Shown piece by piece: positions 40,086 through 64,000 of a stretch of 64,000 nucleotides of DNA. Numbering within the stretch: the first letter of the stretch is position 1; each line of letters begins with the position of its first letter. The stretch comes from Waddliaceae bacterium (lineage in GTDB: Bacteria; Chlamydiota; Chlamydiia; Chlamydiales; GCA-2709385). The notes beneath the pieces were generated by a model that worked only from the letters and a program-made list of their open reading frames with translations, had not been told where the DNA came from and did not search any database. Made by a program: the position numbers and the translations under genes. The stretch covers positions 155,066 through 219,065 of the forward strand of contig PAQS01000040.1 of NCBI GenBank assembly GCA_002709385.1, written 5' to 3'.

Positions 40086-40266
40086 GACAGTCTCGTGGTT
40101 TTCTCTGTATTTTGACAACTTATACTAGAATAGTGGATCCATCATTCAAAAGTCTACGTACATCTTATACAGAAGAAAATGAAGGAAATGAAGGAAAGGT
40201 TTTTTCTTAAGCGACTACAGCTTGCGTAAAAAAGACAGGAAAGATAAGATCTTAACTAGTTTTCAC

Positions 40267-40353
40267 GGAAAGATGGCTGAGTGGCCGAAAGCACATCCCT
40301 GCTAAGGATGCGTACCTTTACGGGTACCGGGGGTTCGAATCCCCCTCTTTCCG
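40267..40353 (+). tRNA. tRNA-Ser (anticodon GCU)
   Basis: Hand-folded. The acceptor stem is ggaaaga/tctttcc. The anticodon stem is catcc/ggatg with loop ctGCTaa. It has a long variable arm, a T-arm gggttcgaatccc, and discriminator G. Confidence 0.9.
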
Positions 40354-40354
40354 A

Positions 40355-40389
40355 CAAAAAAAGCTCTGAATTTTATTCAGAGCTTTTTT
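40355..40389. terminator. bidirectional rho-independent terminator
   Basis: An A-run, the hairpin gctctgaa-tttta-ttcagagc, then a T-run. It serves the tRNA (+) and the convergent POT gene (-). Confidence 0.8.
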
Positions 40390-50031: not shown

Positions 50032-50904
50032 TTAATCTTCTGCCAATTCGTTTGCTAAACGTCTTAAATTTGAAAAGTAATCCTCAGAATAAGGATCAAT
50101 CAACACCAACTCAGCTCCAAGTTCATGAGCAATAAGAGTTGCTCCTTTTTGACTAAATTGAGGTTGTACGTAAATCTTTTTGATAGAATGTTCTCTTGCC
50201 ATTTGAATTGTATGCGTCAATTGCTGAGGTAAAGGATCTCGTCCTTCCCACTCAATTGCAATCTGTTGAAGATTGTACTCTCGGCAAAAATAAGCGAAAG
50301 CACCATGAGAAACCATCATGGAGCGATTGACTACACGACTTAATGATTTCCTCAAATAGAGGTCAAGATCATCTAATTCTTTATTGAGAATGATAAAATT
50401 TTCAGTGATCAACGACGCATGTTCTGGATACAAAGCTTCTAATTCAGAAACAATTATCTGTAGCTGATGTTTCATTAGAGCTGGGCTTAACCATGTATGA
50501 GGGTCTTTACCACTATGACTATGGTCATGATGATGTAAAGTTTCTTCTGCAATTAAATCAATACCATCTCTTAAATCAACAATTTTAGGGGATTTCTTTA
50601 GGTCGCGAACAGCAGAAATAATGCGATCTTCAAAAGCATCTCCAATACGCAACCATAAATCAGCATTTGCAACACGCATAGCTTGTTGTGGTGTTGGCTC
50701 AAAACTATGTGAATTCGCACCTATAGGAACAAGCAAGTCTACGGTAATATGTTCACCAATGAGACGCTCCACAAAATAACGATAAGGAGCAATACTTACT
50801 TCAATGTTAGGCTTCTCTGCTTTCGCAGAAGATTGACAAGAAGAAAATGTCACGAAAATGGCAGCAGACAAAAATATCAATAAATGACGAAGCAAAATAA
50901 GCAC
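50032..50904 (-). CDS. metal ABC transporter substrate-binding lipoprotein (ZnuA/TroA-like)
   Basis: Carries a lipobox-like FSSC and a His-rich loop, HHHDHSHSGKDPHTW. The length is typical of cluster-9 SBPs. Confidence 0.85.
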   Translation of the reverse strand: MLILLRHLLIFLSAAIFVTFSSCQSSAKAEKPNIEVSIAPYRYFVERLIGEHITVDLLVPIGANSHSFEPTPQQAMRVANADLWLRIGDAFEDRIISAVRDLKKSPKIVDLRDGIDLIAEETLHHHDHSHSGKDPHTWLSPALMKHQLQIIVSELEALYPEHASLITENFIILNKELDDLDLYLRKSLSRVVNRSMMVSHGAFAYFCREYNLQQIAIEWEGRDPLPQQLTHTIQMAREHSIKKIYVQPQFSQKGATLIAHELGAELVLIDPYSEDYFSNLRRLANELAED

Positions 50905-51075: not shown

Positions 51076-51163
51076 GGAGGAGTGTCCGAGCGGCCGAAGG
51101 AGCACGCTTGGAAAGCGTGTGTACGTTAATCGCGTACCGCGGGTTCGAATCCCGCCTCCTCCA
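51076..51163 (+). tRNA. tRNA-Ser (anticodon GGA)
   Basis: Hand-folded. The acceptor stem is ggaggag/ctcctcc. The anticodon stem is cacgc/gcgtg with loop ttGGAaa. It has a long variable arm and a T-arm cgcgggttcgaatcccgc. The discriminator-position base is A (51163). Confidence 0.85.
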
Positions 51164-51168
51164 GTATT

Positions 51169-52290
51169 GTGAATGGTGAAGCGCTGGCATTGCCGTTGTG
51201 GCTGGAAAACAGGGGCGCAAAATTCGCAACAACCATTCAGTTGGTGGAAGCGGATCGCTTGTGTAACCCAAACGGCAAGCAGGATAGTAAATATCTTCGC
51301 GCTGGGATTGAGATTGATGCGTATGGCGCACCGCGCGCCTATCATATCCGCAAAAGCCATCCCGGTGATGCCTATTTGGGATTTGGCGTTGATATCAGCG
51401 ATTGGGAGCGTATTCCGTTTGCGACCAGTTTCGGTCGTCGCCGTGTTCTACATATTCATGATAAAGAGCGCACAGGTCAGCATCGAGGGAAGCCGCTTCT
51501 GACCTCCATCATGCCGATGTTTAAAATGCTGGATCATTACGAACGTTCAGAGCTTCAAGCGGCGGTGGTGAATGCCATGATTGCGGCCTTTATTGAAACC
51601 CCGCTGGACGGGGAAAGCATTGGCGAGATGTTTGGCGGATCGGTGGATGATTATCTTGCCGCACGCAATGAATGGGATATTCGCTTGCAGGGTGGATCAA
51701 TCATTCCGATCTTCCCTGGCGATAAGGTTGCGCCCTTTACGCCAAGCCGTCCGAACAGCGGATACGGCCAGTTTGTAGAAAATGTCCTGCGTCATATTGG
51801 TGCGGGTCTCAATATCCCGTTTGAATTGTTGATGAAGGATTTTTCCAAAACCAATTATTCAAGCGCCCGTGCAGCACTTTTGGAAGCGTGGCGCTATTTC
51901 TCGGCGCAACGCCAGTGGCTTGCCACCTATTGGGCAAGACCTGTTTATGAATTGTGGCTCGAAGAAGCGATTAACAAGGGGCTGATTGAAGCCCCTGATT
52001 TTTATGAGAACAAAGCTGCATGGACACGGTGCAAATGGATCGGCCCTGGTCGTGGCTGGGTTGATCCCGTCAAGGAAGCCAAAGCCGCCCATCTTCGGAT
52101 GCAGATTGGTCTTTCCACGCTGGAAGATGAATGTGCATCACAAGGTTTGGATTGGGAAGAAGTCTTGGAACAGCTTGCGCGTGAAAAAGCCAAGATCACT
52201 GAGCTTGGCCTCGCGATCAATGATGTGAACAGCATCTTAAACACCAACACAGAAGATAAACCTCTTGATAATACCGTACATAAACCGTAA
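51169..52290 (+). pseudogene. phage portal protein, lambda (gpB) family, 5'-truncated
   Basis: The 373-aa ORF opens with a GTG 5 nt after the tRNA. Segments VEADRLCNP, NYSSARAALLEAWRYF and GPGRGWVDPVKEAKA match my memory of PF05136/TIGR01539. That family runs to ~500+ aa, so the N-terminal part appears to be missing. Confidence 0.8.
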
Positions 52291-52293
52291 GAT
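52265..52293 (+). promoter_or_regulatory. sigma70-like promoter candidate TTGATA-N17-TAAGAT with ACCGTA repeats
   Basis: Read directly from the sequence. ACCGTA occurs at 52273, 52284 and 52304, a spacing of 11 and 20 bp. The site overlaps the portal stop and lies upstream of the RHH-YfbU gene. Confidence 0.35.
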
Positions 52294-52326
52294 ACGACAT
52301 ATAACCGTATTTAAGAGGAGTGTATT

Positions 52327-53016
52327 ATGGTAGAAAAGACAGAGCGTTTTGAAATGAGATTGTCACAGGAAGTATTTGATCAAGTTGATGAATGGCGAAA
52401 AGATCAAGATGATAATCCTTCACGCGCAGAAGCAGTTAGAAGGCTTATTGAGAATTCGCTTTCTAAATCTCCGTCAATAGCTGGCGGGGAAAAACTTATT
52501 TTGATAATGCTTTGTGATTTATTTAAGAAGCTAAAGATTGATAGTGATATTGAGCCTGATTTCATAGTAGATGTTATCTACGGTGGGCATTATTGGGCAC
52601 TAAAGTGGAAGTATCAGGGATTGTTTCATGGGTATGCCGATACAAACAAAGATGTCACTGAAGTTTGTGACATCCTAGATATGTGGGCTTTTATTGAAAG
52701 AGGATACAATAAACTCAGTAAAAAAGATCAGGATTTTCTGGAGAAAGAACTTTCGCCATTTGGAAAAAACATTCAATTCCCTGGGTTTGACGGCAATAAT
52801 GAAGCTGAACACTTAGGCATTGCACGCTTTTTAATTGAGAAGATGGATAGGTTTGGACACTTCAAAAATCGGGCACATGATTTGAATTCTCATTCACCTT
52901 CACTAGACGGATACAAAAAAATGTTAAATATATTCTTGCCGATGCGTTCTAACTTAATCGGGATTGAGCTTGATGCAAAACAGCTCGTTCAAATAATGAA
53001 TGCAAAATACAAATAA
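52327..53016 (+). CDS. ribbon-helix-helix (CopG/Arc-like) :: YfbU-domain fusion protein (moron)
   Basis: The N-terminus, ERFEMRLSQEVFDQVDEWRK..SRAEAVRRLIENSL, has an RHH pattern. The C-terminal ~165 aa are colinear with E. coli YfbU as I recall it: KLILIMLCDLF with RLILSNQYKMM, FPGFDGNNEAEHLGIARFLI with [20 protein letters not shown], and YKKMLNIF..LDAKQLVQIMNA with YQRMLNVW..LSANEINQIINA. The gene is AT-rich compared with its flanks. Confidence 0.75.
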   Translation: MVEKTERFEMRLSQEVFDQVDEWRKDQDDNPSRAEAVRRLIENSLSKSPSIAGGEKLILIMLCDLFKKLKIDSDIEPDFIVDVIYGGHYWALKWKYQGLFHGYADTNKDVTEVCDILDMWAFIERGYNKLSKKDQDFLEKELSPFGKNIQFPGFDGNNEAEHLGIARFLIEKMDRFGHFKNRAHDLNSHSPSLDGYKKMLNIFLPMRSNLIGIELDAKQLVQIMNAKYK

Positions 53017-53033
53017 AAAACTAAACCACCACC

Positions 53034-53059
53034 AAAAGCCGCCTTCGGGCGGCTTTTTT
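53034..53059 (+). terminator. strong rho-independent terminator inside the head-gene block
   Basis: The hairpin is aaaagccgcc-ttcg-ggcggctttt, followed by tt. Confidence 0.85.
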
Positions 53060-53081
53060 ATTGCAGAATCTAGGAGGAACG

Positions 53082-54290
53082 ATGAGAATCTGGAACCGCA
53101 TAACCGGTGATCCGTGGGCGATCACTGAAACCGCCTTGCACACGATTTTGGAAGTGGCCGCGCGTGAAAATGAAGCGCCAGAGGCGGTTGCTGCAAAACT
53201 TGGTCGTCAATTGCAAAACAGTTATAACGCCACCGAGCGCGATGGTGTAGCGATTATCCCTGTGACAGGGCCGCTCTTTCGGTACGCCAACATCTTCACG
53301 GCGATCAGCGGTGCATCCAGCTATGAATTGATTGCGCGTGATTTTATGAGCGCCCTTGAAAATCCGCAAATAAGTTCGATTATTTTGGATATTGATTCAC
53401 CCGGCGGTGAGGTTAACGGCGTGTCGGAGCTGGCCAGCATGATCTTTGAAGCACGCGGCACAAAACCGATCATTGCTTATGCGTCTGGTGATGCGGCATC
53501 GGGTGCATATTGGATTGCCTCTGCTGCCGATAAAATTGTGGTATCGGAAACATCGGCGCTGGGATCAATTGGCGTGGTTGGTATTTACCGTGGAAAATCA
53601 GCCAAAGAATCCACTGAGACGGTGGAGATTGTGTCCTCACAAAGCCCCTACAAACGCCTTGATCCAATGAGTGATGATGGTCGCGCCAAATTACAAACGC
53701 GTATTGACTCCATGGCCGATGTGTTTGTGTCGACCATTGCCCGCAATCGATCCGTCACGCCTGATCATGTGTTGGAGCATTATGGCGGTGGTGATGTCAT
53801 GATTGGTGCAAATGCCGTCAATGCCGGTTTGGCAGATCGCATCGGATCATTAGAGCGCCTGATTACAGAACTTTCATCCCCGAAAACCCAAAGCCCTCCG
53901 CCAGAGGGCTTTTTTAGTTCAACCCAACCGAAAAAGGAGAAAAAGCCCATGAACCTTGAACAACTGAAAACCGATCATCCCGATCTGGTTGCCTCACTGC
54001 ATGCAGAAGGATCAGCCAAAGAAAAGCAGAGATTGAAGGATATTTTAAGCTGTGAAGCTGCCGAAGGTCGCCAAAAGCTGGCGCAGGAAATTGCACTCCA
54101 TACTGAGATCAATGCTATGGATGCCCAGCATTTGATGAAGAGCGCGCCGAAAGATGAGCCAGAAAAACCGCAATCATCTTCGTTTGATCGCGTGATGTCA
54201 TCCATCCCCAATCCTGAAATCGCCCCTGATGGGGATGATCATATCGCCACTGCCGATACGGTTGCCGACCGCATCGCCTCAACCCGCTAA
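53082..54290 (+). CDS. S49-family prohead protease / minor capsid protein C-like, with C-terminal scaffold region
   Basis: Motifs are ILDIDSPGGEVNG and AYASGDAASGAYWIASAADKIV (SppA/ClpP-like). The ATG at 53082 follows an aggagg RBS; the track ORF starts at a TTG at 53061. Confidence 0.85.
   Translation: MRIWNRITGDPWAITETALHTILEVAARENEAPEAVAAKLGRQLQNSYNATERDGVAIIPVTGPLFRYANIFTAISGASSYELIARDFMSALENPQISSIILDIDSPGGEVNGVSELASMIFEARGTKPIIAYASGDAASGAYWIASAADKIVVSETSALGSIGVVGIYRGKSAKESTETVEIVSSQSPYKRLDPMSDDGRAKLQTRIDSMADVFVSTIARNRSVTPDHVLEHYGGGDVMIGANAVNAGLADRIGSLERLITELSSPKTQSPPPEGFFSSTQPKKEKKPMNLEQLKTDHPDLVASLHAEGSAKEKQRLKDILSCEAAEGRQKLAQEIALHTEINAMDAQHLMKSAPKDEPEKPQSSSFDRVMSSIPNPEIAPDGDDHIATADTVADRIASTR
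53949..54290 (+). CDS. candidate nested in-frame scaffold protein (lambda Nu3-like arrangement)
   Basis: An internal ATG lies in frame with the protease gene and is preceded by AAGGAG at 53934-53939. The product, MNLEQLKTDHPDLVASLHAEG..., is helical and charged. Confidence 0.4.
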   Translation: MNLEQLKTDHPDLVASLHAEGSAKEKQRLKDILSCEAAEGRQKLAQEIALHTEINAMDAQHLMKSAPKDEPEKPQSSSFDRVMSSIPNPEIAPDGDDHIATADTVADRIASTR

Positions 54291-54317
54291 CCCCAACAAT
54301 AAAGGAGACCCAAAACC

Positions 54318-54692
54318 ATGACTCATGCTTCAGGTTTTACCAATCAGGGTGAGTATAAACCCTGTAATTTACTGGCGGGAGAATACCCCCGCATTGAACG
54401 CATCATCACCATTGCTTCTGGCAGTAACCTTACCAAAGGCGCAGTGCTGGGACGCATTACCGCTTCGGGCAAGTTTGTCTTAAGTGCATCTGGCGCAAGC
54501 GATGGCTCAGAAACACCCGATGCCATTTTGGCCGAAAATATCGATGCAAGCGCCGAGGATAAACAAGCCGTTGTGTATTTCAGCGGTGAGTTTAACGAAA
54601 ACGCACTCACGCTTGGCACTGGCCACACGGTGGAAAGTATCCGCGCTGGTTTACGTTCCAAAAGCATCTTCCTTCGCTCAAATCAATCATAA
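54318..54692 (+). CDS. head decoration protein (lambda gpD-like)
   Basis: 124 aa. The sequence LLAGEYPRIERIITIASGSNLTKGAVLGRITASGKFVLS..DGSETPDAILAENIDAS..AVVYFSGEFN matches the gpD family pattern. It sits between the protease and capsid genes. Confidence 0.8.
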   Translation: MTHASGFTNQGEYKPCNLLAGEYPRIERIITIASGSNLTKGAVLGRITASGKFVLSASGASDGSETPDAILAENIDASAEDKQAVVYFSGEFNENALTLGTGHTVESIRAGLRSKSIFLRSNQS

Positions 54693-54712
54693 CCCATAAG
54701 GAGAACACTCAT

Positions 54713-55753
54713 ATGTCTGTAGATATTTTTAGCACCCATGTTCTGACCAAGGTGGTCGAACGGCTGGATCGTCCAAGCTCGTTTTTGCTGGATGTATTTT
54801 TCGGCCAGGAACAAACCGAAGATAGCGAAGAAATCCACTTCGATATCGATAAATCCAAACCACGTTTAACACCTTTTGTGTCACCCTTGGTGGCGGGTAA
54901 AGTCGTGGATGATGAAGGCTATATCACCAAGAGCTTCAAACCGGCATACGCCAAAGACAAACGCCGATTTGATCCAAGCCGTCCGCTCAAGCGCTCCATT
55001 GGTGAAAAAATCGGTGGGACATTGTCTCCGCAACAACGCCTTGAAGCCAATCTCAACCGCACGCTCACCAAGCAGCTTGAAAACCTCACGCGCCGTGAGG
55101 AAGTGATGGCGGCAGAAGCCTTGCGAACAGGAAAAATTACTGTCGCCGGTGAAGATTACCCAACGGTGGTGGTTGATTTTCAGCGTGATCCTGAATTGAC
55201 TGTTGCGCTGGCTGGTTCGTCCCGCTGGGGTGAAACAGGCGTGAATGCGCTCAACAACCTTGAAGACTGGGTTGCCAAAGTGCAGGAGAAATCAGGCGCA
55301 GTTGCCCGCACAGTTGTCATGGACGCGCTGGCATGGCGCGTGTTTAAGGCCGATGCGTCTGTTGAAAAGCTCCTTGATATTCGCCGGTTGCGCGATAACG
55401 CCGGCATTAATCTGGGGCCGATTGCGTTTGGTCAGGGTAATGAGCTTGCCCGCTATGTTGGCTCAATCGGTGATCTGGATTTCTGGGTTTATAACGACCG
55501 TTATGTCGATGAAAGTGATCAGGTGCAAAAACTGCTTCCTGATTACACGGTTTTAATCGGCAGTACGTCGCAGCTTGAAGGCACGCGCTGTTACGGCGTC
55601 ATCCAAGATGAAAAAGCGGCGTATCGGGCGCAGCGTTTCTTCTCCAAATCATGGTTAGAGGAAGACCCTGCTGTGCGCTGGTTGCTGTTGCAATCTGCAC
55701 CGCTCCTTGTGCCGTACCGTCCAAACGCATCATTTTGTGCAACCGTGCGCTAA
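54713..55753 (+). CDS. major capsid protein, lambda gpE family
   Basis: 346 aa. The N-terminus MSVDIFSTHVLTKVVERLDRPSSFLLDVFF and the length are typical of PF03864. Confidence 0.85.
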   Translation: MSVDIFSTHVLTKVVERLDRPSSFLLDVFFGQEQTEDSEEIHFDIDKSKPRLTPFVSPLVAGKVVDDEGYITKSFKPAYAKDKRRFDPSRPLKRSIGEKIGGTLSPQQRLEANLNRTLTKQLENLTRREEVMAAEALRTGKITVAGEDYPTVVVDFQRDPELTVALAGSSRWGETGVNALNNLEDWVAKVQEKSGAVARTVVMDALAWRVFKADASVEKLLDIRRLRDNAGINLGPIAFGQGNELARYVGSIGDLDFWVYNDRYVDESDQVQKLLPDYTVLIGSTSQLEGTRCYGVIQDEKAAYRAQRFFSKSWLEEDPAVRWLLLQSAPLLVPYRPNASFCATVR

Positions 55754-55767
55754 GGGAGGGTTGAATT

Positions 55768-56142
55768 ATGAAGATAACAGCAATCATTACCCTGCATGTT
55801 GACGGCAAAGCTATTCTGCCTGGCAAATCGGTTGATATTTCTGATGAGGAGGCAAAGTCACTGATTGAGCGTGGCTTTGCTAAGTCGGCGGATGTATCAT
55901 CCGTGGCAGAACAAAAGCCTGCTCAGACCCAGCACCCCGAACCCGCCATTGATGATGTGATTGAAGCCATTGAAATCCTCAATCCTGAAACCGACTTTGC
56001 CAAAAACGGCAAGCCAAAGGTGGAAGCGATAGAGGCTGTTCTTGGTCAAAACATCTCTGCCGAAACACGCGATAAGGCGTGGGAGCTTTATCAAAAAGAG
56101 CTGGAGGCTGATGAGGCATCGGGCGATGACGTTCAGGAATAG
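55768..56142 (+). CDS. hypothetical acidic phage protein (FI position)
   Basis: 124 aa. The N-terminus MKITAIITLHVDGKAILPGKSVDISDEEAKSLIERGFA resembles small Mu-like prophage N-terminal domains. Its role is unknown. Confidence 0.5.
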   Translation: MKITAIITLHVDGKAILPGKSVDISDEEAKSLIERGFAKSADVSSVAEQKPAQTQHPEPAIDDVIEAIEILNPETDFAKNGKPKVEAIEAVLGQNISAETRDKAWELYQKELEADEASGDDVQE

Positions 56143-56440
56143 TGCCATAAAATCGGTGGACGTGCTGTTTCATCGTTTTGGAAAAACGGCACGTCTAATC
56201 TTTGCGGATGAAACGGAAATTGAGGCGCTGGTGATCCATCGCCTGCCAGACAAAATCACAGATGTGTTTGATGCGCGGGTGCATTCGGAAACCGATATGT
56301 TTGAAGTGCGCCTGAGTGATATTCCTTCTGGCAACACGCTAGGGTCTATTGTTGTGGATGACAAGCGTTACACCATGCAGGGCGAACCCATCAAAGATCA
56401 GCATAATCTTATTTTAAAGGTAGATGCTTATGCGGTTTAA
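56126..56440 (+). CDS. head-tail joining protein (FII/gp6-like position)
   Basis: I prefer the ATG at 56126 (MTFRNSAIKSVDVLFHRFGKTARLIF...), which overlaps the upstream stop. The size and pattern are typical of head-tail joining proteins. Confidence 0.55.
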   Translation: MTFRNSAIKSVDVLFHRFGKTARLIFADETEIEALVIHRLPDKITDVFDARVHSETDMFEVRLSDIPSGNTLGSIVVDDKRYTMQGEPIKDQHNLILKVDAYAV

Positions 56441-57086
56441 AGCAGCTCTTGAGGGCGATCTTAAAAAACACATGAAGGAAGAGTATCACACGGCAGAGCG
56501 CGCCGTTACGCTCGGTATTCGTGAAGCCACAAATGGTTTAAAAATGTCCATGCGTCGCCAGGTACATTCGTCAGGTTTGGGACAACGTATGGCAAACACA
56601 TGGCGCGGTGACATTTACCCGCGTGGACAGAACTCTATTCGGGCGGCGGGGATGGTTTACAGCAAAGCCAGCAAAATCATGGCAGGCTTTGATGAAGGCA
56701 CGGTCATTAAATCAAAAGATGGTTGGTGGTTGGCTGTTCCAACGCCAAATGCGCCAAAGCGCGGTATGGGTGGTAAGCGGATTAATCCCTCCAACTTCCC
56801 TGAACATCGCTATGGCAAACTCCGCTTTGTGTATCGACGCAACGGGCCGTCATTATTAGTGGTCGAAAATGTTCAGGCGTCTTACAGCCGTAAAACAGGT
56901 GATATGCGGGGTTTTCGTAAAGCCAGCCAGAGAAACCTGAAAACAGGCCGTAATCTCTCAACCGCTGTGATGTTCTGGCTTGTGCCTCAAGTAAAGCTAC
57001 CAAAGCTGATCCGTTTCGATGAAGAAGCCAAGCGCTGGTATGACAAACTACCACGGCTGATTTTGAAGAACTGGCCGGATAGTTAA
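56424..57086 (+). CDS. phage neck / head-completion protein (DUF6441-like, uncertain)
   Basis: 220 aa. It overlaps the upstream stop. The family is assigned from memory only. Confidence 0.45.
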   Translation: MLMRFKAALEGDLKKHMKEEYHTAERAVTLGIREATNGLKMSMRRQVHSSGLGQRMANTWRGDIYPRGQNSIRAAGMVYSKASKIMAGFDEGTVIKSKDGWWLAVPTPNAPKRGMGGKRINPSNFPEHRYGKLRFVYRRNGPSLLVVENVQASYSRKTGDMRGFRKASQRNLKTGRNLSTAVMFWLVPQVKLPKLIRFDEEAKRWYDKLPRLILKNWPDS

Positions 57087-57161
57087 CAGTAAATAAATGA
57101 CAAAAAGCAAACTGAAAGTTTGTTTATTGCACTATTTTTAATGATTTATTGAGTCTTTGAG

Positions 57162-57190
57162 TTGACTATCATTAAAAAAATGACTATAAA
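57162..57190 (+). promoter_or_regulatory. near-consensus promoter TTGACT-N17-TATAAA for the AbiE pair
   Basis: Counted directly from the sequence. The -10 element ends 6 nt before the ATG at 57197 and no SD is visible, so the transcript may be leaderless. The direct repeat TGACTAT occurs at 57163 and 57181. Confidence 0.45.
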
Positions 57191-57196
57191 CATACT

Positions 57197-57967
57197 ATGA
57201 GTGTGTCAAATGATAAAAAATTAAAGAATCTTTTGGAGCAGTGGCCTGCAGGGTTTGCTGCCACTTTTCAATGGATGCAAACTTTAGGCATAACCACTCA
57301 ATTAACTCAGAGATATCTCAAGAGTGGTTGGATAGAGTCGATAGGGCGTGGAGCCTATAAAAAAACTAAAGATAAGGTGGAGTGGTATGGTGCATTAGCC
57401 AGCATTCAGCAGCAATTATTCACGCCTGTGCATTTAGGCGGACCAACAGCACTAGCAGTACAAGGGTCTTCTCATTATGTGCGAGTTGGAAAGGAAAGAA
57501 TATTTGTGTTCTCAGTGCCACAGCAAAGATTGCCCAGCTGGTTTTTGAAGCACGATTGGGGGCAACCTATAGAATGTATAAAAACGTCATTTTTATCTCA
57601 AGACCTTGGAATAAAAGAAGATGACTGCAATGGCTTCCCTGTACGAATGTCGTCACGGGAACGCGCTATATTAGAAAGCCTCTATTTAAGTCCGCAGCAT
57701 TTTGATTTGTTGGAATGTTACCAAATGATGGAAGGAATGAATGATATACGACCTAATCTGGTTCAGGAATTATTGGTTCAATGCAAATCTATCCGTGTGA
57801 AACGATTATTCTTATACATGGCAAGTAAAGCCAAGTTACCAGTCTTGGAATATCTGGATTTAAATAAAGTAGACCTTGGAACTGGAGACCGTTCTATCGT
57901 TGAAAATGGTGTTTATGATCCTCAATATAAAATCAGCATACCGAAAGAATTAGCAAATTATGTTTGA
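57197..57967 (+). CDS. AbiEi-family (AbiEi_3-type) antitoxin / transcriptional regulator
   Basis: The sequence LLEQWPAGFAATFQWMQTLGITTQLTQRYLKSGWIESIGRGAYKK..VEWYGALASIQQQL..VHLGGPTALAVQG matches the AbiEi N-terminal wHTH pattern. Confidence 0.8.
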   Translation: MSVSNDKKLKNLLEQWPAGFAATFQWMQTLGITTQLTQRYLKSGWIESIGRGAYKKTKDKVEWYGALASIQQQLFTPVHLGGPTALAVQGSSHYVRVGKERIFVFSVPQQRLPSWFLKHDWGQPIECIKTSFLSQDLGIKEDDCNGFPVRMSSRERAILESLYLSPQHFDLLECYQMMEGMNDIRPNLVQELLVQCKSIRVKRLFLYMASKAKLPVLEYLDLNKVDLGTGDRSIVENGVYDPQYKISIPKELANYV

Positions 57968-58859
57968 AGCCTATAACGAAAAACTGAAACTTCTGATCAA
58001 GGTTTTGCCAATGGTTGCCGAGGAAAATTGTTTTGCTTTGCACGGCGGTACGGCTATCAACTTATTTGTACATGATCTTCCACGCCTTTCGGTAGATATC
58101 GATCTGACTTATCTTCCTATTGAAGATAGGCCTACAACATTAAAAGGAATTGGTGACGCTCTTTTAAGGATCAAGGAAAAGGTCGAGGCAAAGATACCGC
58201 ATTCTCGTGCTGTTCATAAAGATGATATTGGCAAACTTATTATTTCATTGCATCGCACGGAAATAAAGCTCGAGGTTAATCTTGTTGGTCGTGGCACTTT
58301 GTCAGACCCTGTCAGAATGCCTGTTTGCAAACAGGTTCAGGATATATACGGGTCGTTTATGGCTATGCCAATTGTGCCAATCGGCCAGCTTTATGGCGGT
58401 AAAATATGTGCGGCGCTGGATCGTCAGCATCCCAGAGATTTGTTTGATGTAAAACTCTTGATGGAAAATGAAGGTTTCTCGGATGATGTTCGCACGGGCT
58501 TTTTACTCTGCCTTCTATGCAGTGATCGCCCGATCAACGAAGTTCTTGTGCCGAATTTTCAAGATCAACGTCAAGCCATGGAAAGACAGTTTACAGGCAT
58601 GAGCGATGTCGAATTTACTTACGATGATTTTGAAACAACGCGTGAACAGCTTGTCGAGACCGTTAATAAAAGCCTCACAGCAAAAGATAAAGAATTTTTG
58701 CTGAGCGTAAAAAACTGTGAGCCGGATTGGAGCATTTATGATTTTGAACGTTTCCCTGCTGTGCAATGGAAACTGCAAAATTTACGCAAGTTAAAAGAAA
58801 GCAACCCTGATAAGCATAAGCAGCTTTATGAGGCTTTGAAGGAAAAGCTCGAAGGATAA
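57960..58859 (+). CDS. AbiEii/AbiGii-family nucleotidyltransferase toxin
   Basis: The NTase core is LHGGTAINLFVHDLPRLSVDIDLTY, with ..YGGKICAALDRQHPRDLFD downstream. The start overlaps the AbiEi stop by 8 nt. Confidence 0.85.
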   Translation: MFEAYNEKLKLLIKVLPMVAEENCFALHGGTAINLFVHDLPRLSVDIDLTYLPIEDRPTTLKGIGDALLRIKEKVEAKIPHSRAVHKDDIGKLIISLHRTEIKLEVNLVGRGTLSDPVRMPVCKQVQDIYGSFMAMPIVPIGQLYGGKICAALDRQHPRDLFDVKLLMENEGFSDDVRTGFLLCLLCSDRPINEVLVPNFQDQRQAMERQFTGMSDVEFTYDDFETTREQLVETVNKSLTAKDKEFLLSVKNCEPDWSIYDFERFPAVQWKLQNLRKLKESNPDKHKQLYEALKEKLEG

Positions 58860-58865
58860 ACAAAC

Positions 58866-59300
58866 ATGACATCAAAACGAGAACAGGCCTTAGCGGGCCT
58901 TTTTTTATGCCTGCAAAATGAGATGAGCGGTGTTGCGGTTTTGAGGAATGAGCCATTGCCCACCAAAATCTCTGCATCGGGATTATTGATTTTGCGTGAT
59001 GGCGATGCGGGAGAGCCTGAAATAACGCTCTCCCCGACCAGGTATCACTATGCCCATGTTGCAGAATTGGAGGTGCTGGTACAAAAACCAAAACCCGATG
59101 AGCGTGATGCTGCATTGGATGAATTGTTGGTAGCGCTGGGTAACACGCTCAGCGCTGATCGGGCGCTCTCAGGTGCGGTGGATTACATGTCCATCGGCTC
59201 ACCTGAATTTTTAACCGAAGCCGTGGAAGGTGCGCCCGCTATTAAGGCGGCAGTCGTGCCGATCACGCTCGAATACACAACCCTTAACCCACTTCAATAA
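58866..59300 (+). CDS. tail terminator / tail completion protein (gpU position)
   Basis: 144 aa, placed immediately upstream of the tube gene. The assignment rests on position and size. Confidence 0.45.
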   Translation: MTSKREQALAGLFLCLQNEMSGVAVLRNEPLPTKISASGLLILRDGDAGEPEITLSPTRYHYAHVAELEVLVQKPKPDERDAALDELLVALGNTLSADRALSGAVDYMSIGSPEFLTEAVEGAPAIKAAVVPITLEYTTLNPLQ

Positions 59301-59314
59301 AGGAGAAACATATA

Positions 59315-60256
59315 ATGTCACGCGCTTACGGGTGGAATGCCCGCATGTTACTTGGTTTTGAAACCACATATGGTACACCCCCGAATTCGGGGGCTTTTCA
59401 TGTCATCCCCTTTGTGTCGTCTGATTTGGACTCGGCACAAGGGTTGATTGAATCCAATGTTCTGGGGCTAGGTCGTGATCCGACTGCGCCGTTTCAGGAT
59501 GTGATCAATGTGGACGGTGATATTGTTGTGCCGGTTGATCTTCGCAATATCGGTCTATGGCTCAAAGCCATGTTTGGTGCGCCAACCACCACAGGTGATG
59601 ATCCTTATACCCACGAGTTTAAATCAGGTGCAATCACACTGCCCAGTATTGCAGTGGAAGTTGGTTTACCTGAAATCCCTGACTTCCCTCTATTCACAGG
59701 CGTGCGTGCCAACAGCATCGCCTTTAATTTTGCCCGATCTGGTGAGGCACAAATCACCGTTGGCTTGATTGGTCAGGGCGAAACAGCGCAAACGGTCACG
59801 TGTGATGCCAATCCGAGCCAAGCCGATTACACACGGTTTTCGCAATTCCAAGGTTCGGTCAAACAAGGCGGTCAGGCGCTGGGGAATGTAACCTCAGCGG
59901 CGCTCACATATAGCAACAATCTGGAGCGTATCGAAACTATCCGTGATGACGGCAAGATCGACGGCGTAGACCCCGGCGTTGCGTCTTTAAGCGGGAATAT
60001 CACCGTGCGTTATGCCGATACCACATTGATGGATGCGGCGCGTGCCGGCATACCGATTGATCTGGAATTATCCTATATCATCGATGCCAATCGCCAGCTG
60101 GTCATTGAATGCCACGAGGTTTATTTGCCGAAGCCGAAACGATCCATTTCAGGGCCGAATGGCATTGAAGCGTCTTACGACTATCAAGGCGCAAAAGATG
60201 CTGTGCTGGGCAACATGGTTACAATCACTCTTATCAACGATGTGGAGACTTATTAA
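59315..60256 (+). CDS. major tail tube protein (gpV position)
   Basis: 313 aa with beta-rich sequence. It sits between the terminator-like and chaperone genes. Confidence 0.6.
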
Positions 60257-60786
60257 TGTTAAAACTCAATATTCAAACAGAAGCTTATTGGCTTGAACTT
60301 GGTCTGGGCGTGAAGGTAAAAGTGCGCCCATGCACTAGCCCGATTTTTTATGCCGCGCGGGCTTTCATGAACAAACGCCTGACGGAGTTAGGCGCAGAAT
60401 ACCGCAAGCGAAAAGAGATCGGCGCATCGGTGGATGATTTACCTGATGTCGAAAATCCTGAAATTCGTGAGGCACTGGCCGAGGAATATCTGGCACGGGG
60501 ACTAGCCCGCTCAGCCATTATTGATTGGGACGGTATTTTGGAATCGACCGGTGATGATAAAGCGCCTGTCACTCCTGAAAAGATTGATGAGCTGATGACA
60601 GGGTTTTGGTCAATCGCTGCCAGTTTCTCTGAGCAATACACAGGCGTGCGGGAGCTGATCGAAGCTGAAAAAAAAGACTTGAGCGCCGCGCCGAATGGCA
60701 CTTCGGAGACGGCGCAGGATATTGCGGGAACTGCCCCGAAACGTGTGCGGAATGCCCGTTCGAAAAAAACAGCCCGCAAAGCCTAG
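60256..60786 (+). CDS. tail assembly chaperone (gpG-like)
   Basis: 176 aa and acidic. It has a TAATG overlap with the tube gene and lies directly upstream of the tape measure gene. Confidence 0.6.
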
Positions 60787-60965
60787 AGGGTTTTCAAGCA
60801 TGGGATATTGCCGTTCGCATATCCCCACAAATCAGAAACAGCTTTCCTTTATCCGAAGCCTTAAGTCTGGCATCCGCGCTGGGCTATGACATGGCGGTGA
60901 TGGGAGAGCTGTTGCCTGCATTATCAACCGGTATCACCAAAGCCTTAATGGCTCATAAGGAATAA
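60256..60965 (+). CDS. candidate -1 frameshift fusion chaperone (gpGT-like)
   Basis: The -1 frame is open from 60669 to the TAA at 60963-60965, 10 nt before the tape measure ATG. A-runs lie at 60668-60675 and 60763-69 in the overlap (see finding). Confidence 0.45.
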
Positions 60966-60975
60966 TTAAACCGCC

Positions 60976-63900
60976 ATGCGTTCACAAAAAAACATGTCAA
61001 TCCGCCTTGCCGTGGTGGACGGGAAAAAGGTTGAGGATACCTTTTCTCGTATCGGGCGTACGGGTGAACAGGCTTTTGAGCGTATTGAGCGTTCGACTAA
61101 GCCCGCCAGTGTGGGCTTAAAGGCCGTTGATACCACAGCCCGTGCCTTGAATAATGTGTTTCGTCAAGCGGCAGGACTTGTGGCGGCTTATGCTGGGATT
61201 TCCGGCATTATTTCTTCTGTGCGCTCCGTCAATGAAACCGGTATGGCGTTTCAGGGCTTAGGAACGGCGCTGGAAACCATTACAGGCTCAAGCGCCGGTG
61301 CGCGTGAGGAAATGAAATTCCTCGAAGAACAAGCCGAGCGATTGGGCTTAAATCTCTTGGAAACAGCGCAATCTTATATGCAGATTGCTGCTGCCGCCAA
61401 AGGGACGGAACTTGCGGGCGATGGCACACGCCAGATCTTCACCGCCATTGCCGAAGCCTCCACTGTGCTTCAGCTTTCTGTTGATCAAACCAATGGTGCG
61501 CTCCGTGCCATCGGGCAAATCATGTCCAAGGGTAAGGTTCAGGCTGAAGAATTGCGCGGGCAATTGGGTGAGCGGCTTTATGGTGCATTCCAGCTTGCCG
61601 CACGCGGTATGGGCATTACCACGGCAGAGCTTGATAAAATGCTGGAGCAAGGTCAGGTTATTGCCGAAGATTTCCTGCCAAAATTTGCTGCGGAAATTCG
61701 CAAAACATTCTCCGATGGTGTGCCTGCCGCATCCATGACGGCGCGCGCGGAAATGAACCGCTTTAATAATGCGATTTTAGAAATTGAACGCACCATCGCC
61801 GCATCCGGCTTTTTGGATGGTATGACCCAAGGTTACCGTACCCTGACTGCAACGCTCGAAGATCCTGCGGTAGTCGATGCCGCTCGAGAATTAGGGCAAA
61901 CACTCGGCTCTGCCATTGCAACAGCAGCGGAAGGCCTTTCTTTTCTGATAGAGAATGCCGATTTGGCTGTCACGGCACTTGGTGGACTGGTGATTGCCCG
62001 CACAGTTGCGGGTGCGGTAACTCTTTTGAATGCATCCATTGCAGGCAATGCAGGATTGATTGTTGGTCTCCAGATGGCAAACAGCATTTCGACCGCCTTT
62101 GCTATCCGTCTTGTGGCGGTGGAAGCGGCCACCAAACTGGCAACATTGGCGATGGTGGGATTCCGCTCTGCCTTAATGTTGGTGGGTGGCCCTGTGGGGC
62201 TGGCTGTTTTGGCAGGCATTGCCGTTTTGAAACTGGCATCCGGTCACGATGCTGCAGCAAAAGCCGCCCGTGATCATGCGGAAGAATTAAAGGAGATCAA
62301 GGAAGAACTTGGCAAAACCGCCGAGGCGGCATCGGACTTAAGTGAGGCATTAAGTGAAAGCGAGAGCGTTTACCGTTTTACCAAGCAACTGGAAACGGCA
62401 AAAGAAAATATCATCGATCTGCAAAAGGAATTAAAATTCGGTGGCATTGGCGGTTTTTGGGATCAATTCAGCCGTTTTGGAAAACCGCTTCAAAATGAAT
62501 TGTATCAAATTCGCCAAGCCTTCAATCAAGGCAAGCTATCAGCAACGGAATATTCGGAAGCGTTATTCAAACTGGCAACCAAATATCCTGATTTCGGGGA
62601 ACAAGCCGAAGAAGTGCAACAGCAGGTGTTTGCGTTACTCGCGGCAGAACGTGCCGCTAAAAAAGCTGCCGCCGCGCTGGATGAATTACGAAATCCAAAA
62701 ACCAAGATTGCTGCACCTGAAACGCCAACGTCATCAGCCCCTGCGGAAGTGATCCCTGATCTATCGGATGCCGATAAAAAACGCATCACAGATCGCATCA
62801 CGGAATTACATGCAGAAGAACAAGCGCTTCAACGCTTAAATGCTGCACGTAATCAGGGCGAAACGGCTGTGCGCCGTGCCATGATTGCCAATGAACAGGA
62901 TCAGGCTTTACGCCGATTGGGCTTGGATGTCACCGGCGCGCAAAGTGATGAGCAAAAAGCTTATGCCGATCAGGTCAAATCGCTGGTGGGTGATATTTAT
63001 CAATTGCAGGAAGCAGATAAAAACTACCAAGACACTGTCCGTGAAAATAATAAGTTAACGCAAGAACGTGAACGGTTGGTTGAAGATGTGCGCCAGAAAT
63101 ATGATGCGCTGGATACGTCTTTATCGGCGGCGATTAAACGCGCGGGCGAATGGCGCGGCGAAGCCTTAACAGGCCTTGATGCCACCAAGACAGGCTATGC
63201 CGATTTTGCTGCACAGGTTGATGCGGTTTATAACGATATGATCGCCAAAGCTCGTGATGAAGATCTGCAAAATTCCAAAAAATGGGAAGATGGTATCAAA
63301 CGCGGATTGCAAAGCGTTATTGATGAAGCCGACGATATGGCGAGCAAGGCTGAACGCGGTGTGACCTCCATGTTTAAAAGCATGGAAGATGTGCTGGTTA
63401 GTTTTGTCACGACGGGTAAGCTGGATTTTAAATCCATGGCGGATTCCATCATTGCCGATATGGTGCGGATGCAAATCCAATCCAGCATCACAAAACCATT
63501 GGCGGGTGCGCTCGGTGGTTTTCTGGGTGATATTGCAGGGTCAATCTTTGGTGCGCCTGCGGGCACTGGTACGGCCTCCACAGCCACGGCTCATACTGGC
63601 GGTGTGATTGGCAGCGACACTTTACGCATGCGTTCGGTCAGTCCTGCGGTGTTTGCAAATGCGCCTCGTTTTCACACTGGTGGTATCGTTGGCAATGAGG
63701 TGCCGATTATCGCCAAACAAGGTGAAGCTGTCTTTACTCCAGGTCAAATGAAACTGCTGGGCGGTGCGTTGCAATCCAAGCCAAATGTGAATGTGTCTGT
63801 CCGTGTTGAAAATAATGCCAGCAATGCTCAGGCCAGAGCCGATGTTAGTCGTGATAGCGCAGGCAACATGGACTTAAAAATCATCATCGAGGAAGTGGAA

Positions 63901-63996: not shown

Positions 63997-64000
63997 ATGA

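What the first reader, a model, noticed from the sequence alone, without database searches (positions are those of the whole stretch)
51076..51200. Breakpoint sits at the last nucleotide(s) of tRNA-Ser(GGA) and lands mid-gene in the portal
- The tRNA acceptor stem ends at 51162.
- From ~51165 onward the sequence is G+C-rich and already inside the portal reading frame. The ORF can only open with a GTG at 51169, and that frame stays open backwards into the tRNA.
- The first recognisable portal residues (..TIQLVEADRLCNP..) belong well inside lambda-family portals, so the 5' part of the gene and everything upstream (terminase, regulatory genes, integrase) is absent.
- There is no spacer and no att-like repeat.
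- The discriminator-position base is A (51163). The other tRNA-Ser in this window has G, and G73 is the usual bacterial tRNA-Ser configuration. The junction may therefore have replaced the native 3' end.
- This fits either tRNA-targeted integration followed by deletion of half the prophage, or an artificial or assembly join.
Basis: seen in the sequence. Interest (0 to 1): 0.65.

Follow-up and report, generated by a model that had tools for sequence, protein, structure and literature searches.

The report
Chlamydial tRNA fused to foreign prophage
The last bases of a serine tRNA gene in an uncultured marine chlamydia (Waddliaceae) are joined, with only four shared bases, to the middle of the portal gene of a prophage that normally lives in Micavibrio-like alphaproteobacteria; the join recurs in several independent assemblies, so it looks like a very recent cross-phylum DNA capture, but how far the foreign DNA really extends cannot be told without the reads.

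Summary
tRNA-Ser(GGA) lies at 51076-51163, G+C jumps from about 36% to 50% there, and the next ORF is a lambda-family portal lacking its first 135-138 codons.

The interpretation needs revising.
- The phage DNA (51159-64000) differs by one synonymous base in 12.8 kb from a prophage found full-length in marine contigs. The closest named relatives are Micavibrio MAGs.
- That phage encodes a large serine recombinase, not a tRNA-targeting tyrosine integrase. There is no att repeat. Only CTCC is shared at the breakpoint.
- The identical join appears in at least seven contigs from several runs and at least two size-fraction libraries of Tara station 124. No contig shows an empty site. A one-off assembly join is therefore unlikely.
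- The source MAG contig (247 kb, labelled Waddliaceae) runs on through the phage right arm into metal-resistance genes whose proteins are identical to those of Micavibrio sp. TMED27. It probably came from a Minimus2 secondary assembly. Linkage beyond about 54.3 kb is unverified.

Best reading (confidence 0.62): a real, very recent microhomology-mediated illegitimate join of donor prophage DNA onto the chlamydial chromosome, at a tRNA flank that is a variable accessory locus in relatives. The phage remnant cannot function as a phage. Read-level confirmation is still needed.

The parts
50032..50904 (-). Last host gene before the join: ZnuA-type metal-binding lipoprotein (NCBI MBB65511.1, labelled Waddliaceae bacterium). 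It is divergent from the tRNA, as in Waddlia chondrophila.
   Evidence: PF01297 hit and 100% match to the NCBI protein. Synteny ZnuCBA / tRNA-Ser(GGA) with Waddlia.
51076..51163 (+). tRNA-Ser(GGA), a class II tRNA with a long variable arm and an intact 7-bp acceptor stem. The discriminator is A at 51163. No CCA is encoded.
   Evidence: ARAGORN and Rfam RF00005 at 55.3 bits. The first 60 nt are identical to the Waddlia orthologue.
51159..51162 (+). Crossover microhomology CTCC, the only bases shared by the tRNA 3' end and the phage portal gene. The bases to the left are chlamydial and those from 51163 onward are phage.
   Evidence: Alignment of the window with seven full-length phage copies. 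BLAST identity to the phage begins at 51159.
51163..52290 (+). 5'-truncated lambda-family portal gene. Codons 1-135 are lost. The longest ORF starts at GTG 51169 and has no Shine-Dalgarno sequence. It is probably a pseudogene and has no protein entry in the NCBI record.
   Evidence: PF05136 positions 113-354 of 354. Comparison with the 511-aa portal. MBB65511 (ZnuA) is followed directly by MBB65512 (YfbU).
52327..53016 (+). YfbU-domain moron with low G+C. It is present in some variants of this phage family and absent in others.
   Evidence: PF03887. Absent between portal and protease in L149, L151, L153 and L154.
53061..55753 (+). Head genes: S49 protease/scaffold, gpD-like decoration protein and gpE-like major capsid protein. 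The Tara-124 contigs that carry the junction reach about 54340. The one base that differs from L012, L022, L025 and L027 is at 54266 and is synonymous.
   Evidence: Pfam hits. L010/L003 identical to about 54340, and scaffold_41 to 53593. SNP located.
55768..57086 (+). Head-completion and connector genes: a 124-aa protein, a Phage_attach-like protein and DUF6441.
57197..58859 (+). AbiEi/AbiEii type IV toxin-antitoxin moron with low G+C, sitting at a moron hot spot of the phage family.
   Evidence: PF17194, PF11459 and PF08843. The same position holds HipA in L153 and L156, and is empty in L149 and L151.
58866..63996 (+). Tail genes: a 144-aa protein, tail tube (Phage_tube_2), a 176-aa protein and the 1006-aa tape measure (MBB65524.1). 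The phage DNA runs off the window end.
   Evidence: 100% identical to Tara scaffold_8099.
40266..40355 (+). tRNA-Ser(GCT), used for comparison (G73). It is part of the MnmG-DnaB-tRNA block that is syntenic with Waddlia.

Best explanation
The join is a real piece of DNA in the community at Tara station 124. The chromosome of an uncultured Waddliaceae chlamydia is joined, at the last four bases of tRNA-Ser(GGA), to the right arm of a lambda-like siphovirus prophage. That phage's normal host is a cosmopolitan marine Micavibrio-like alphaproteobacterium.

The joint was made by illegitimate, microhomology-mediated recombination (CTCC), not by att-site integration. Incoming linear donor DNA is inferred to have been a fragment of a Micavibrio chromosome carrying the prophage, either taken up or injected, and trimmed from its left end into the portal gene. 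It was then ligated or primed at a break at the 3' end of the tRNA gene. In related chlamydiae that flank is a variable locus full of accessory genes.

Consequences:
- The tRNA's native trailer is lost and its position-73 base is now identical to the phage base (A).
- The portal has lost codons 1-135.
- No terminase, replication, lysogeny or integrase genes came along, so the remnant cannot make particles.
- The remaining genes are intact only because the event is very recent.
- The AbiE toxin-antitoxin and YfbU morons could still be expressed and might help retention (inference).

Shown: the anatomy of the joint, the identity of the donor, the reproducibility of the join, and the absence of att or integrase features. 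Inferred: the direction and route of transfer, and that the recipient molecule is the chlamydial chromosome. Not established: where the foreign DNA ends. The source contig's continuation into Micavibrio chromosome may be real or may be a secondary-assembly merge.
For: **Host side is chlamydial**
- Two NTP/NDP exchange transporters, plus TolB and DnaB passing their equivalog cut-offs.
- ZnuA is 100% identical to a protein NCBI labels Waddliaceae bacterium.
- The block MnmG / tRNA-Ser(GCT) / DnaB / ZnuCBA / tRNA-Ser(GGA) is syntenic with Waddlia chondrophila.

**Donor identified**
- 51159-64000 matches L012, L022 and L025 with 1 mismatch in 12,842 nt. Those copies carry the 511-aa portal, TerL and gpW upstream.
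- The nearest named relatives in the species-representative genomes, with portals 95-99% identical, are Micavibrio and other alphaproteobacterial MAGs. M. aeruginosavorus has a TipJ tail protein 77% identical.
- In the native context the prophage lies next to a copper/metal-resistance locus, on contigs up to 0.8-2 Mb that also carry PolA and SpoU.

**Joint anatomy**
- 4-nt microhomology, no repeat and no integrase.
- The phage integrase is a serine recombinase.

**Reproducibility**
- The junction is 100% identical in L001-L007 and L009-L011. These come from Genoscope per-sample scaffolds (SAMEA2622804 and SAMEA2622801), contigs named in the MEGAHIT (k127_) and SPAdes (NODE_) styles from ERR868491, ERR868371 and two other assemblies, and a Logan contig of ERR868494.
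- SAMEA2622801 is the 0.45-0.8 um fraction of TARA_124_MIX.
- Contigs pass the joint without breaking. None of the nine contigs carrying ZnuA shows an alternative continuation.
- All mismatches lie in contig tips.

**Left arm not seen**
The exact TerS-like protein occurs in 16 contigs. None of the 10 places shown is from a junction sample, and the phage left-arm proteins are never labelled Waddliaceae.

**Hot-spot context**
In related environmental contigs the flank of the orthologous tRNA carries a serine recombinase abutting the tRNA end plus an Mrr nuclease (L181), AbiE pairs (L168) or Fic (L188).

**Plausible route**
Chlamydia takes up DNA through a ComEC homologue (PMC6686042).
Against: - No reads could be inspected, so support for the join is indirect (contigs only).
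- All junction contigs come from one station. The libraries may share handling.
- Donor-type DNA occurs in the same sample: scaffold_148 (101.5 kb) carries the Micavibrio-like chromosome plus the phage right arm.
- The source MAG contig continues for about 19 kb into genes whose proteins are 100% identical to Micavibrio sp. TMED27. Read literally, that would fuse two chromosomes.
- The MAG appears to be a TOBG genome (inferred from its locus-tag style). That pipeline merges contigs with Minimus2 at 100-nt overlap and 95% identity.
- No right-hand junction back into chlamydial DNA was found.
- The test for absence of the phage left arm used exact matches only, and variant phages do co-occur.
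- Nothing shows that this chlamydia is competent, or that the phage can deliver DNA to it.
Confidence: 0.62

Rival explanations
1. The join itself is an artefact. On this view a chimeric fragment or mis-assembly links two organisms that merely co-occur. The chlamydial chromosome really continues with its own DNA after the tRNA, and the Micavibrio prophage is intact.
For: - Both organisms' DNA is present in the same sample.
- The source contig is a cross-phylum composite that runs into Micavibrio chromosome. It probably comes from a pipeline that uses a permissive secondary assembly.
- Short microhomologies are also typical of template-switch chimeras made in vitro (general knowledge).
- All the evidence comes from a single station.
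Against: - Only 4-5 nt are shared, far below any assembler's k.
- The identical join appears in contigs from at least four runs and two BioSamples, built by several different assemblies, including a Logan contig.
- No contig shows the native continuation, and contigs do not break at the joint.
- Where coverage is stated, the junction contigs (5-6x) match the neighbouring contigs rather than looking like a rare link.
Confidence: 0.12
2. The phage first integrated site-specifically at tRNA-Ser(GGA) in the chlamydia. A later deletion then removed everything from attL to portal codon 135.
For: - tRNA 3' ends are classic integration sites (general knowledge).
- In a related chlamydia-type contig (L181) a large serine recombinase gene abuts the end of the same tRNA.
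- In the native host the element with the phage-type recombinase lies about 330 nt downstream of a tRNA-Tyr.
Against: - The phage recombinase is only 24% identical to the L181 enzyme.
- In the native host a terminator and about 330 nt separate the tRNA-Tyr from the element.
- No tRNA-Ser-like segment exists in the fetched prophage sequence, which does not cover the extreme left end.
- A deletion would have to end, by coincidence, inside the last four bases of the acceptor stem.
- Near-identity to the donor (1 synonymous SNP in 12.8 kb) leaves little time for two successive events.
- No evidence shows that this phage can infect or lysogenise a chlamydia.
Confidence: 0.06
3. The molecule is not a bacterial chromosome at all. 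Instead, DNA from a chlamydial symbiont and from a Micavibrio-like bacterium was concatenated by end joining inside a eukaryotic host genome, or in some other non-replicating pool of DNA.
For: - Junction contigs occur in Tara runs of project PRJEB4352, which is recalled, not checked here, to be the protist size-fraction project.
- A 4-nt microhomology is typical of NHEJ or MMEJ (general knowledge).
- Both flanks look like long tracts of otherwise normal bacterial chromosome.
Against: - The junction is also present in the 0.45-0.8 um fraction.
- No eukaryotic sequence is linked to either side in the loci examined.
- A symbiont genome coexisting with a nuclear copy would create a branch at the tRNA, and none is seen.
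Confidence: 0.04

Closest known systems
Lambda-like siphovirus prophages of Micavibrio and marine alphaproteobacteria (GpA terminase, gpW, PF05136 portal, S49 protease, gpD/gpE head, Phage_tube_2, TipJ tail tip, large serine recombinase)
   Same: Gene order and sequence match. The window is 99.99% identical to full-length copies (L012, L022, L025), and portals 95-99% identical occur in Micavibrio MAGs.
   Different: Only the part from portal codon 136 rightwards is present. It abuts a chlamydial tRNA instead of the phage's own gpW and terminase.
Prophages and genomic islands integrated at tRNA 3' ends by site-specific recombinases
   Same: The position is exactly at the 3' end of a tRNA gene. 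In relatives the same tRNA flank carries accessory and mobile genes, including a serine recombinase in L181.
   Different: There is no integrase and no att direct repeat. The breakpoint on the phage side lies inside a structural gene. The tRNA's trailer is replaced and its position-73 base now equals the phage base.
[quoted passage not shown]
   Same: Foreign DNA with no homology is joined at a short G+C-rich microhomology. The donor sequence is otherwise unaltered.
   Different: No homologous anchor and no second joint have been identified. Competence of this chlamydia is unknown. DNA uptake via a ComEC homologue is shown only for Chlamydia trachomatis (PMC6686042).
Cross-organism composite contigs in MAGs built by secondary assembly (Tully et al. 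2018 pipeline, PMC5769542)
   Same: A single 247-kb contig carries DNA of two phyla, and the pipeline merges contigs at 100-nt overlap and 95% identity.
   Different: The actual cross-phylum join has only 4 shared bases and is reproduced in primary assemblies that did not use that pipeline.
Packaging in place from an unexcised cos prophage (lambda docL-type particles, lateral transduction)
   Same: The DNA content is what such a particle would hold: head genes, tail genes, then the adjacent host chromosome, all on the side of the prophage away from the integrase. This comparison rests on general knowledge, not on a test.
   Different: The fragment starts in the portal gene rather than at cos. 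No evidence shows delivery into a chlamydia. The length of the insert is unknown.

Membership tests
att-flanked prophage integrated at a tRNA gene | Integrase gene next to the tRNA-proximal end | tested here: not met
   The first gene after the tRNA is the truncated portal. No recombinase is found in the ORFs scanned or called between 51165 and 64000.
att-flanked prophage integrated at a tRNA gene | Direct repeat of the tRNA 3' segment (att core) at the other end of the element | tested here: inconclusive
   No second copy was found in the window or in any fetched phage locus, allowing up to 3 mismatches in 22 nt or up to 8 in 45 nt. The true far end of the insert in the chlamydial molecule could not be reached.
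att-flanked prophage integrated at a tRNA gene | The phage encodes a recombinase of a tRNA-targeting kind, with attP next to it | tested here: not met
   Full-length copies encode a large serine recombinase (Resolvase + Recombinase + Zn_ribbon) with DUF2924 at the far left end. The breakpoint is about 13 kb away, inside the portal gene.
att-flanked prophage integrated at a tRNA gene | tRNA 3' end restored to its native sequence by the element | tested here: inconclusive
   The discriminator is A, identical to the phage base. The Waddlia orthologue and 23 of 25 readable environmental orthologues have G, but two have A naturally. None shares the downstream bases.
Functional lambda-family portal gene (PF05136) | Full-length match to the family profile and to orthologues | tested here: not met
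   Profile positions 113-354 of 354 only. The ORF lacks 138 residues of the 511-aa orthologue.
Assembly chimera | Join found in one assembly only, or made at a repeat at least as long as the assembler's k | tested here: not met
   The join is identical in at least 7 contigs from at least 4 runs and 2 BioSamples, from several different assemblies. Only 4-5 nt are shared.
Assembly chimera | The two sides belong to different organisms that co-occur in the sample | tested here: met
   Left side chlamydial. Right side Micavibrio-type prophage plus chromosome. Scaffold_148 of the same sample carries that chromosome.
Assembly chimera | Lack of spanning reads or read pairs at normal depth | not testable with these tools
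Only contig coverage tags (5-7x) were seen.
Illegitimate (microhomology-mediated) recombination joint | Short microhomology at the breakpoint, with uninterrupted parental sequences identifiable on both sides | tested here: met
   CTCC is shared. The phage parent is L012, L022 and related copies. The tRNA parent is represented by the Waddlia orthologue and 27 environmental orthologues.
Illegitimate (microhomology-mediated) recombination joint | A second joint, or a homologous anchor, closing the insertion in the recipient | tested here: inconclusive
   Walks along the phage right arm and the flank found only Micavibrio-type context. A search for the expected chlamydial neighbour (HemF) could not single out this organism's copy.
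Gene transfer agent or domesticated phage cluster | Conserved at the same locus in related genomes and encoding a complete head | tested here: not met
   The cluster is absent next to this tRNA in Waddlia, and none of the 25 environmental relatives whose sequence reaches past the tRNA shares the downstream bases. The portal is truncated and no terminase is present.

The most novel reading that the evidence does not exclude
A transfer between phyla caught almost as it happened. On this reading an environmental chlamydia has just taken in tens of kilobases of Micavibrio DNA. The insert would comprise the whole right arm of a prophage plus the neighbouring IS3 element and the copper/metal-resistance island, as the 247-kb MAG contig literally shows. 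It might have arrived as one packaged or taken-up fragment, joined by microhomology at the tRNA-Ser(GGA) island hot spot. The event would also have left a serine tRNA with A at position 73.
Probability: 0.2. Interest if true: 0.7.

Novelty: new member of a known kind. Interest (0 to 1): 0.45.

Why it matters
If the join is confirmed in the reads, it would be a rare, datable example of foreign DNA entering an obligate intracellular chlamydia in the open ocean.
- The donor is identified almost to the base.
- The joint shows the mechanism: microhomology, not an integrase.
- The exact DNA-level changes are visible: a truncated portal, and a tRNA whose discriminator position, normally G in this tRNA and an identity element, is now A.

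It also matters as a caution. The public Waddliaceae MAG carries about 40 kb of Micavibrio-type DNA on its largest contig: a prophage right arm plus metal-resistance genes. Anyone reading that genome would credit a chlamydia with a prophage, an AbiE system and copper resistance that may not all belong to it.

Tried and rejected
**Searches that found nothing or did not help**
1. Exact junction and intact-portal 39-42-mers in IMG/VR: no hits.
2. A strict tRNA pattern in the JGI metagenomes: no hits. A relaxed 46-mer gave 27 orthologues but none from this species.
3. ARAGORN on 26 full-length relatives of the phage: no tRNA within 10 kb of the portal.

**Attempts to find the right-hand end of the insert**
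4. Walking with exact proteins along the phage right arm and the flank. Only Micavibrio-type context appeared. Three assemblies break at L012:16275-16304, but ERR868491 passes through along the phage path, so this is not shown to be a junction.
5. A look-up of the major capsid protein was too unspecific, with 54 blocks.
6. Looking for the expected chlamydial neighbour by way of Waddlia HemF. HemF is so conserved that 120 hits at about 70% identity came back, none attributable to this MAG.

**Ideas considered and rejected or left open**
7. Mismatches in L004, L010, L015 and L146 looked at first like strain divergence across the junction. All of them lie in the last or first 75-140 nt of the contigs, which means tips that switch to a co-occurring variant phage.
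8. The phage left arm seems to be absent from Tara 124, but this is only suggestive. The exact-match look-up hid five similar places, and variant copies would be missed.
9. A link between the phage's serine recombinase and the one abutting tRNA-Ser(GGA) in L181: they are only 24% identical.
10. A gene transfer agent, or an old cryptic prophage: rejected because of near-identity to the donor and absence from relatives.
Full report
**1. The observation**

ARAGORN finds two tRNA genes in the window: tRNA-Ser(GCT) at 40266-40355 and tRNA-Ser(GGA) at 51076-51163. Rfam's tRNA model matches the second over its full length at 55.3 bits. G+C is 0.32-0.42 over the first 51 kb and about 0.50 from 51001 onwards, with two low-G+C dips.

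The ORF at 51169-52290 starts with GTG. Its frame is open back into the tRNA. It matches the lambda-family portal profile PF05136 only from profile position 113 to 354. The next genes are a YfbU-domain gene, an S49 protease, gpD-like and gpE-like head proteins, connectors, an AbiEi/AbiEii pair, a tail tube and a 1006-aa tape measure that ends four bases before the window does. No terminase, integrase or regulatory gene follows the tRNA. The window holds no second copy of the tRNA 3' end.

**2. Who the two sides belong to**

*Left side.* It encodes two NTP/NDP exchange transporters. TolB and DnaB pass the cut-offs of their NCBIfam equivalog models PRK01029 and PRK06321.
- The ZnuA-type protein next to the tRNA is 100% identical to a protein that NCBI labels 'MAG: metal-binding protein [Waddliaceae bacterium]', on a 247,204-bp contig. 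The next-best homologue is only 51% identical.
- In Waddlia chondrophila the same block occurs in the same arrangement: MnmG, tRNA-Ser(GCT), DnaB, ZnuCBA, then a divergent tRNA-Ser(GGA).
- The first 60 nt of the two tRNA-Ser(GGA) genes are identical.

*Right side.* Exact-protein look-ups showed the same phage elsewhere in full-length form, with a 511-aa portal preceded by gpW, a GpA-type large terminase and a ParB-methyltransferase.
- At the DNA level, window 51159-64000 differs from L012 (12,842 nt) by one base, and from L022, L025 and L027 by the same base over their shorter overlaps. That base is a synonymous C/T at 54266.
- A scan of species-representative genomes returned portals 95-99% identical in marine Micavibrio and other alphaproteobacterial MAGs (UBA5572, SAT33, NAT141, RI_185), and none in chlamydiae.
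- Cultured Micavibrio aeruginosavorus has a tail-tip protein 77% identical.
- The full-length copies carry, at their far left, DUF2924 and a 452-aa large serine recombinase.

**3. The breakpoint**

The full-length phage reads ...GTA TTC CGC TCC AGT ATT GTG AAT GG... (V F R S S I V N G, codons 133-141). The window reads ...CCCGCCTC CTCC AGTATTGTGAATGG. Identity to the phage starts at 51159, and only CTCC (51159-51162) is common to both parents. Codons 1-135 of the portal are gone. The longest ORF starts at V139, with no Shine-Dalgarno sequence in front of it. NCBI's record has no protein entry between ZnuA (MBB65511) and YfbU (MBB65512).

The A at the discriminator position is identical to the phage base. 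The Waddlia orthologue has G followed by TACTTAAC.

In 27 JGI metagenome contigs that share the first 46 nt of this tRNA, 25 could be read at the discriminator. It is G in 23 and A in two (L182, L187). None shares the downstream bases. A73 is therefore unusual but not unheard of, and the crossover can be stated only as 'within CTCC, or CTCCA if the native base was A'.

In E. coli, G73 is a moderate serine identity determinant and an antideterminant against LeuRS and TyrRS, while A73 is a leucine and tyrosine determinant (PMC9976931). A change from G to A in a class II tRNA could matter for charging. This is inference, not something tested here.

**4. Is the join real?**

The ZnuA look-up returned nine contigs.
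- Every contig that reaches past the tRNA carries exactly this join at 100% identity. They are the Genoscope scaffolds of SAMEA2622804 (209 kb) and SAMEA2622801, contigs named in the MEGAHIT and SPAdes styles from ERR868491, ERR868371 and two further assemblies, and a Logan contig of ERR868494.
- SAMEA2622801 is the 0.45-0.8 um fraction of TARA_124_MIX. At least two separately filtered libraries of one station therefore contain the join.
- No contig shows an empty site, and contigs run through the joint rather than ending there.
- With only 4-5 shared bases, a de Bruijn mis-join is excluded. A random library chimera should not recur, and should not displace the true paths.
- The few mismatches between these contigs and the window all lie in the last or first 75-140 nt of the contigs. 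These are tips that switch to a related phage variant present in the same samples.

I conclude that the join exists in the sampled DNA. I could not see reads.

**5. The complication**

Exact look-ups of the phage's distal proteins show that the Waddliaceae MAG contig (locus tags CMO81_10665 to at least CMO81_10785) carries four further features:
- the whole right arm, through the tail-tip protein;
- the lysozyme and a 218-aa moron;
- after that, DUF305, an MFS transporter, a copper ATPase, TPR, CusF, CopB, a copper oxidase and a regulator (MBB65536-47);
- most of these flank proteins are 100% identical to proteins of Micavibrio sp. TMED27, and occur on contigs up to 2 Mb.

That flank has 47-60% G+C. 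It is the native neighbourhood of the prophage. The same arrangement, with a full-length portal, occurs in SRR26496188 and in GCA_036128715.1, and contigs of 0.8-1.3 Mb carry the locus next to PolA and SpoU.

The very Tara sample that yields the junction scaffold also yields scaffold_148 (101.5 kb), which is that chromosome plus the phage right arm. The metal-resistance cassette is itself mobile, with many different contexts and a 100% identical ArsR-type regulator in Shewanella xiamenensis.

The locus-tag style matches the Tully et al. MAGs. CMH30 is the tag of NAT141, one of the Micavibrio MAGs listed, as the matching 145,919-bp contig length shows. That pipeline merges Megahit contigs with Minimus2 at 100-nt overlap and 95% identity (PMC5769542). 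The window's continuity is confirmed only to about 54.3 kb by the Tara-124 contigs that carry the junction itself: L010 to about 54340 and scaffold_41 to 53593. Beyond that there are two possibilities. Either the chlamydial molecule really contains the rest, or identical phage sequence from the Micavibrio chromosome was merged on.

Some points favour a single copy in these samples:
- there is no branch at the joint;
- no exact left-arm protein is seen among the places shown from these samples;
- coverage tags are similar (5-7x) for the junction, tail and flank contigs.

Against giving this much weight: variant phages co-occur, the left-arm look-up used exact matches only, and low-coverage contigs all have similar depth. 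I could not find a right-hand junction.

**6. Mechanism**

The serine recombinase, the absence of any att repeat and a breakpoint inside a structural gene all argue against integrase-mediated insertion at the tRNA followed by deletion. Near-identity to the donor argues against any long history.

The simplest account is one illegitimate, microhomology-mediated joint between a broken or replicating tRNA 3' flank and the end of a linear donor fragment. That fragment had been resected from the terminase side into the portal gene.

The flank of this tRNA is a variable, accessory locus in relatives:
- L181 has a large serine recombinase whose stop abuts the tRNA end, plus an Mrr nuclease;
- L168 has two AbiE pairs;
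- L188 has a Fic gene.

Breaks and insertions there appear to be tolerated. The route of entry is unknown. DNA uptake through a ComEC homologue is documented for Chlamydia trachomatis (PMC6686042). A phage particle packaged in place from the unexcised prophage would contain just this kind of DNA: head genes, tail genes, then the adjacent chromosome. Both routes are inference.

**7. Function**

As a phage the remnant is dead, because it has no terminase, no complete portal, and no replication or lysogeny genes. Its ORFs are intact only because it is young. The AbiEi/AbiEii pair and YfbU could be expressed, for instance by read-through from the tRNA, since no terminator-like site follows it. The toxin-antitoxin pair might favour retention. 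This is inference.

**8. Comparison and novelty**

Truncated prophage fragments, tRNA-flank islands and microhomology joints are all known. What is unusual here is the cross-phylum pair (alphaproteobacterial donor, chlamydial recipient), the freshness of the event, and the hit on the last bases of a tRNA.

I file it as a new member of a known kind. The join itself is well supported. The extent of the insert, and therefore the more striking reading (tens of kilobases including a metal-resistance island), is unproven.

As a practical matter, the public MAG should be treated as carrying about 40 kb of Micavibrio-type DNA whose linkage needs confirmation at read level.

Noticed in passing
window 52327-53016 and 57197-58859: Two low-G+C morons sit inside the phage structural module: a YfbU-domain gene, and an AbiEi/AbiEii toxin-antitoxin pair. 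In other variants of the phage family the same two positions are empty or hold a HipA-type system, so they are moron insertion hot spots.
   Followed up: partly
L134 and L138 7618-8619; L136 6131-9035: In the native Micavibrio-like host, the prophage right end is followed by a serine recombinase gene that lacks its resolvase domain (333 aa). A strain without the prophage has an intact 456-aa recombinase with DUF2924 at the same place, about 330 nt downstream of a tRNA-Tyr(GTA). This suggests integration into, or recombination between, recombinase genes of tandem elements.
   Followed up: partly
L012 22025-23021; L114 8220-9781: In the donor strain type, an IS3-family element lies between the prophage moron and DUF305. 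DUF305 is 139 aa there against 123 aa elsewhere, and the recombinase remnant and HxlR gene are missing. This looks like an IS-associated deletion.
   Followed up: no
L137 and L157-L166 (metal-resistance cassette): The cassette (cation efflux, ArsR, copper oxidase, CopB, CusF, copper ATPase, MerR) appears in more than 450 collection blocks in very different surroundings: IS240 transposases, phage genes, and Fic with integrases. Its ArsR-type regulator is 100% identical to a Shewanella xiamenensis protein. It is a widely travelling island.
   Followed up: partly
L181 6925-8675: In a related chlamydia-type metagenome contig, a 554-aa large serine recombinase gene ends inside the last bases of the orthologous tRNA-Ser(GGA), with an Mrr-type nuclease nearby. 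This appears to be an integrated element using the end of that tRNA.
   Followed up: partly
L182 5757-5844; L187 3029-3118: Two environmental orthologues of this tRNA-Ser(GGA) carry A at the discriminator position, with ordinary A+T-rich trailers. G73 is therefore not universal in this lineage.
   Followed up: no
window 2136-3695 and 4987-6558: Two NTP/NDP exchange transporter genes lie about 1.3 kb apart on the same strand with one gene between them, a hallmark of energy-parasitic chlamydiae.
   Followed up: no
L152 4849-6392 (GCA_001684045.1): Another prophage of the family has its portal split into two ORFs (207 and 257 aa) and a shortened terminase, an independent case of decay.
   Followed up: no
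L012 14074-15738 (just beyond the window end): The phage tail module encodes a 554-aa protein with RCC1/WD40-like repeats between the tape measure and the tail-tip genes.
   Followed up: no
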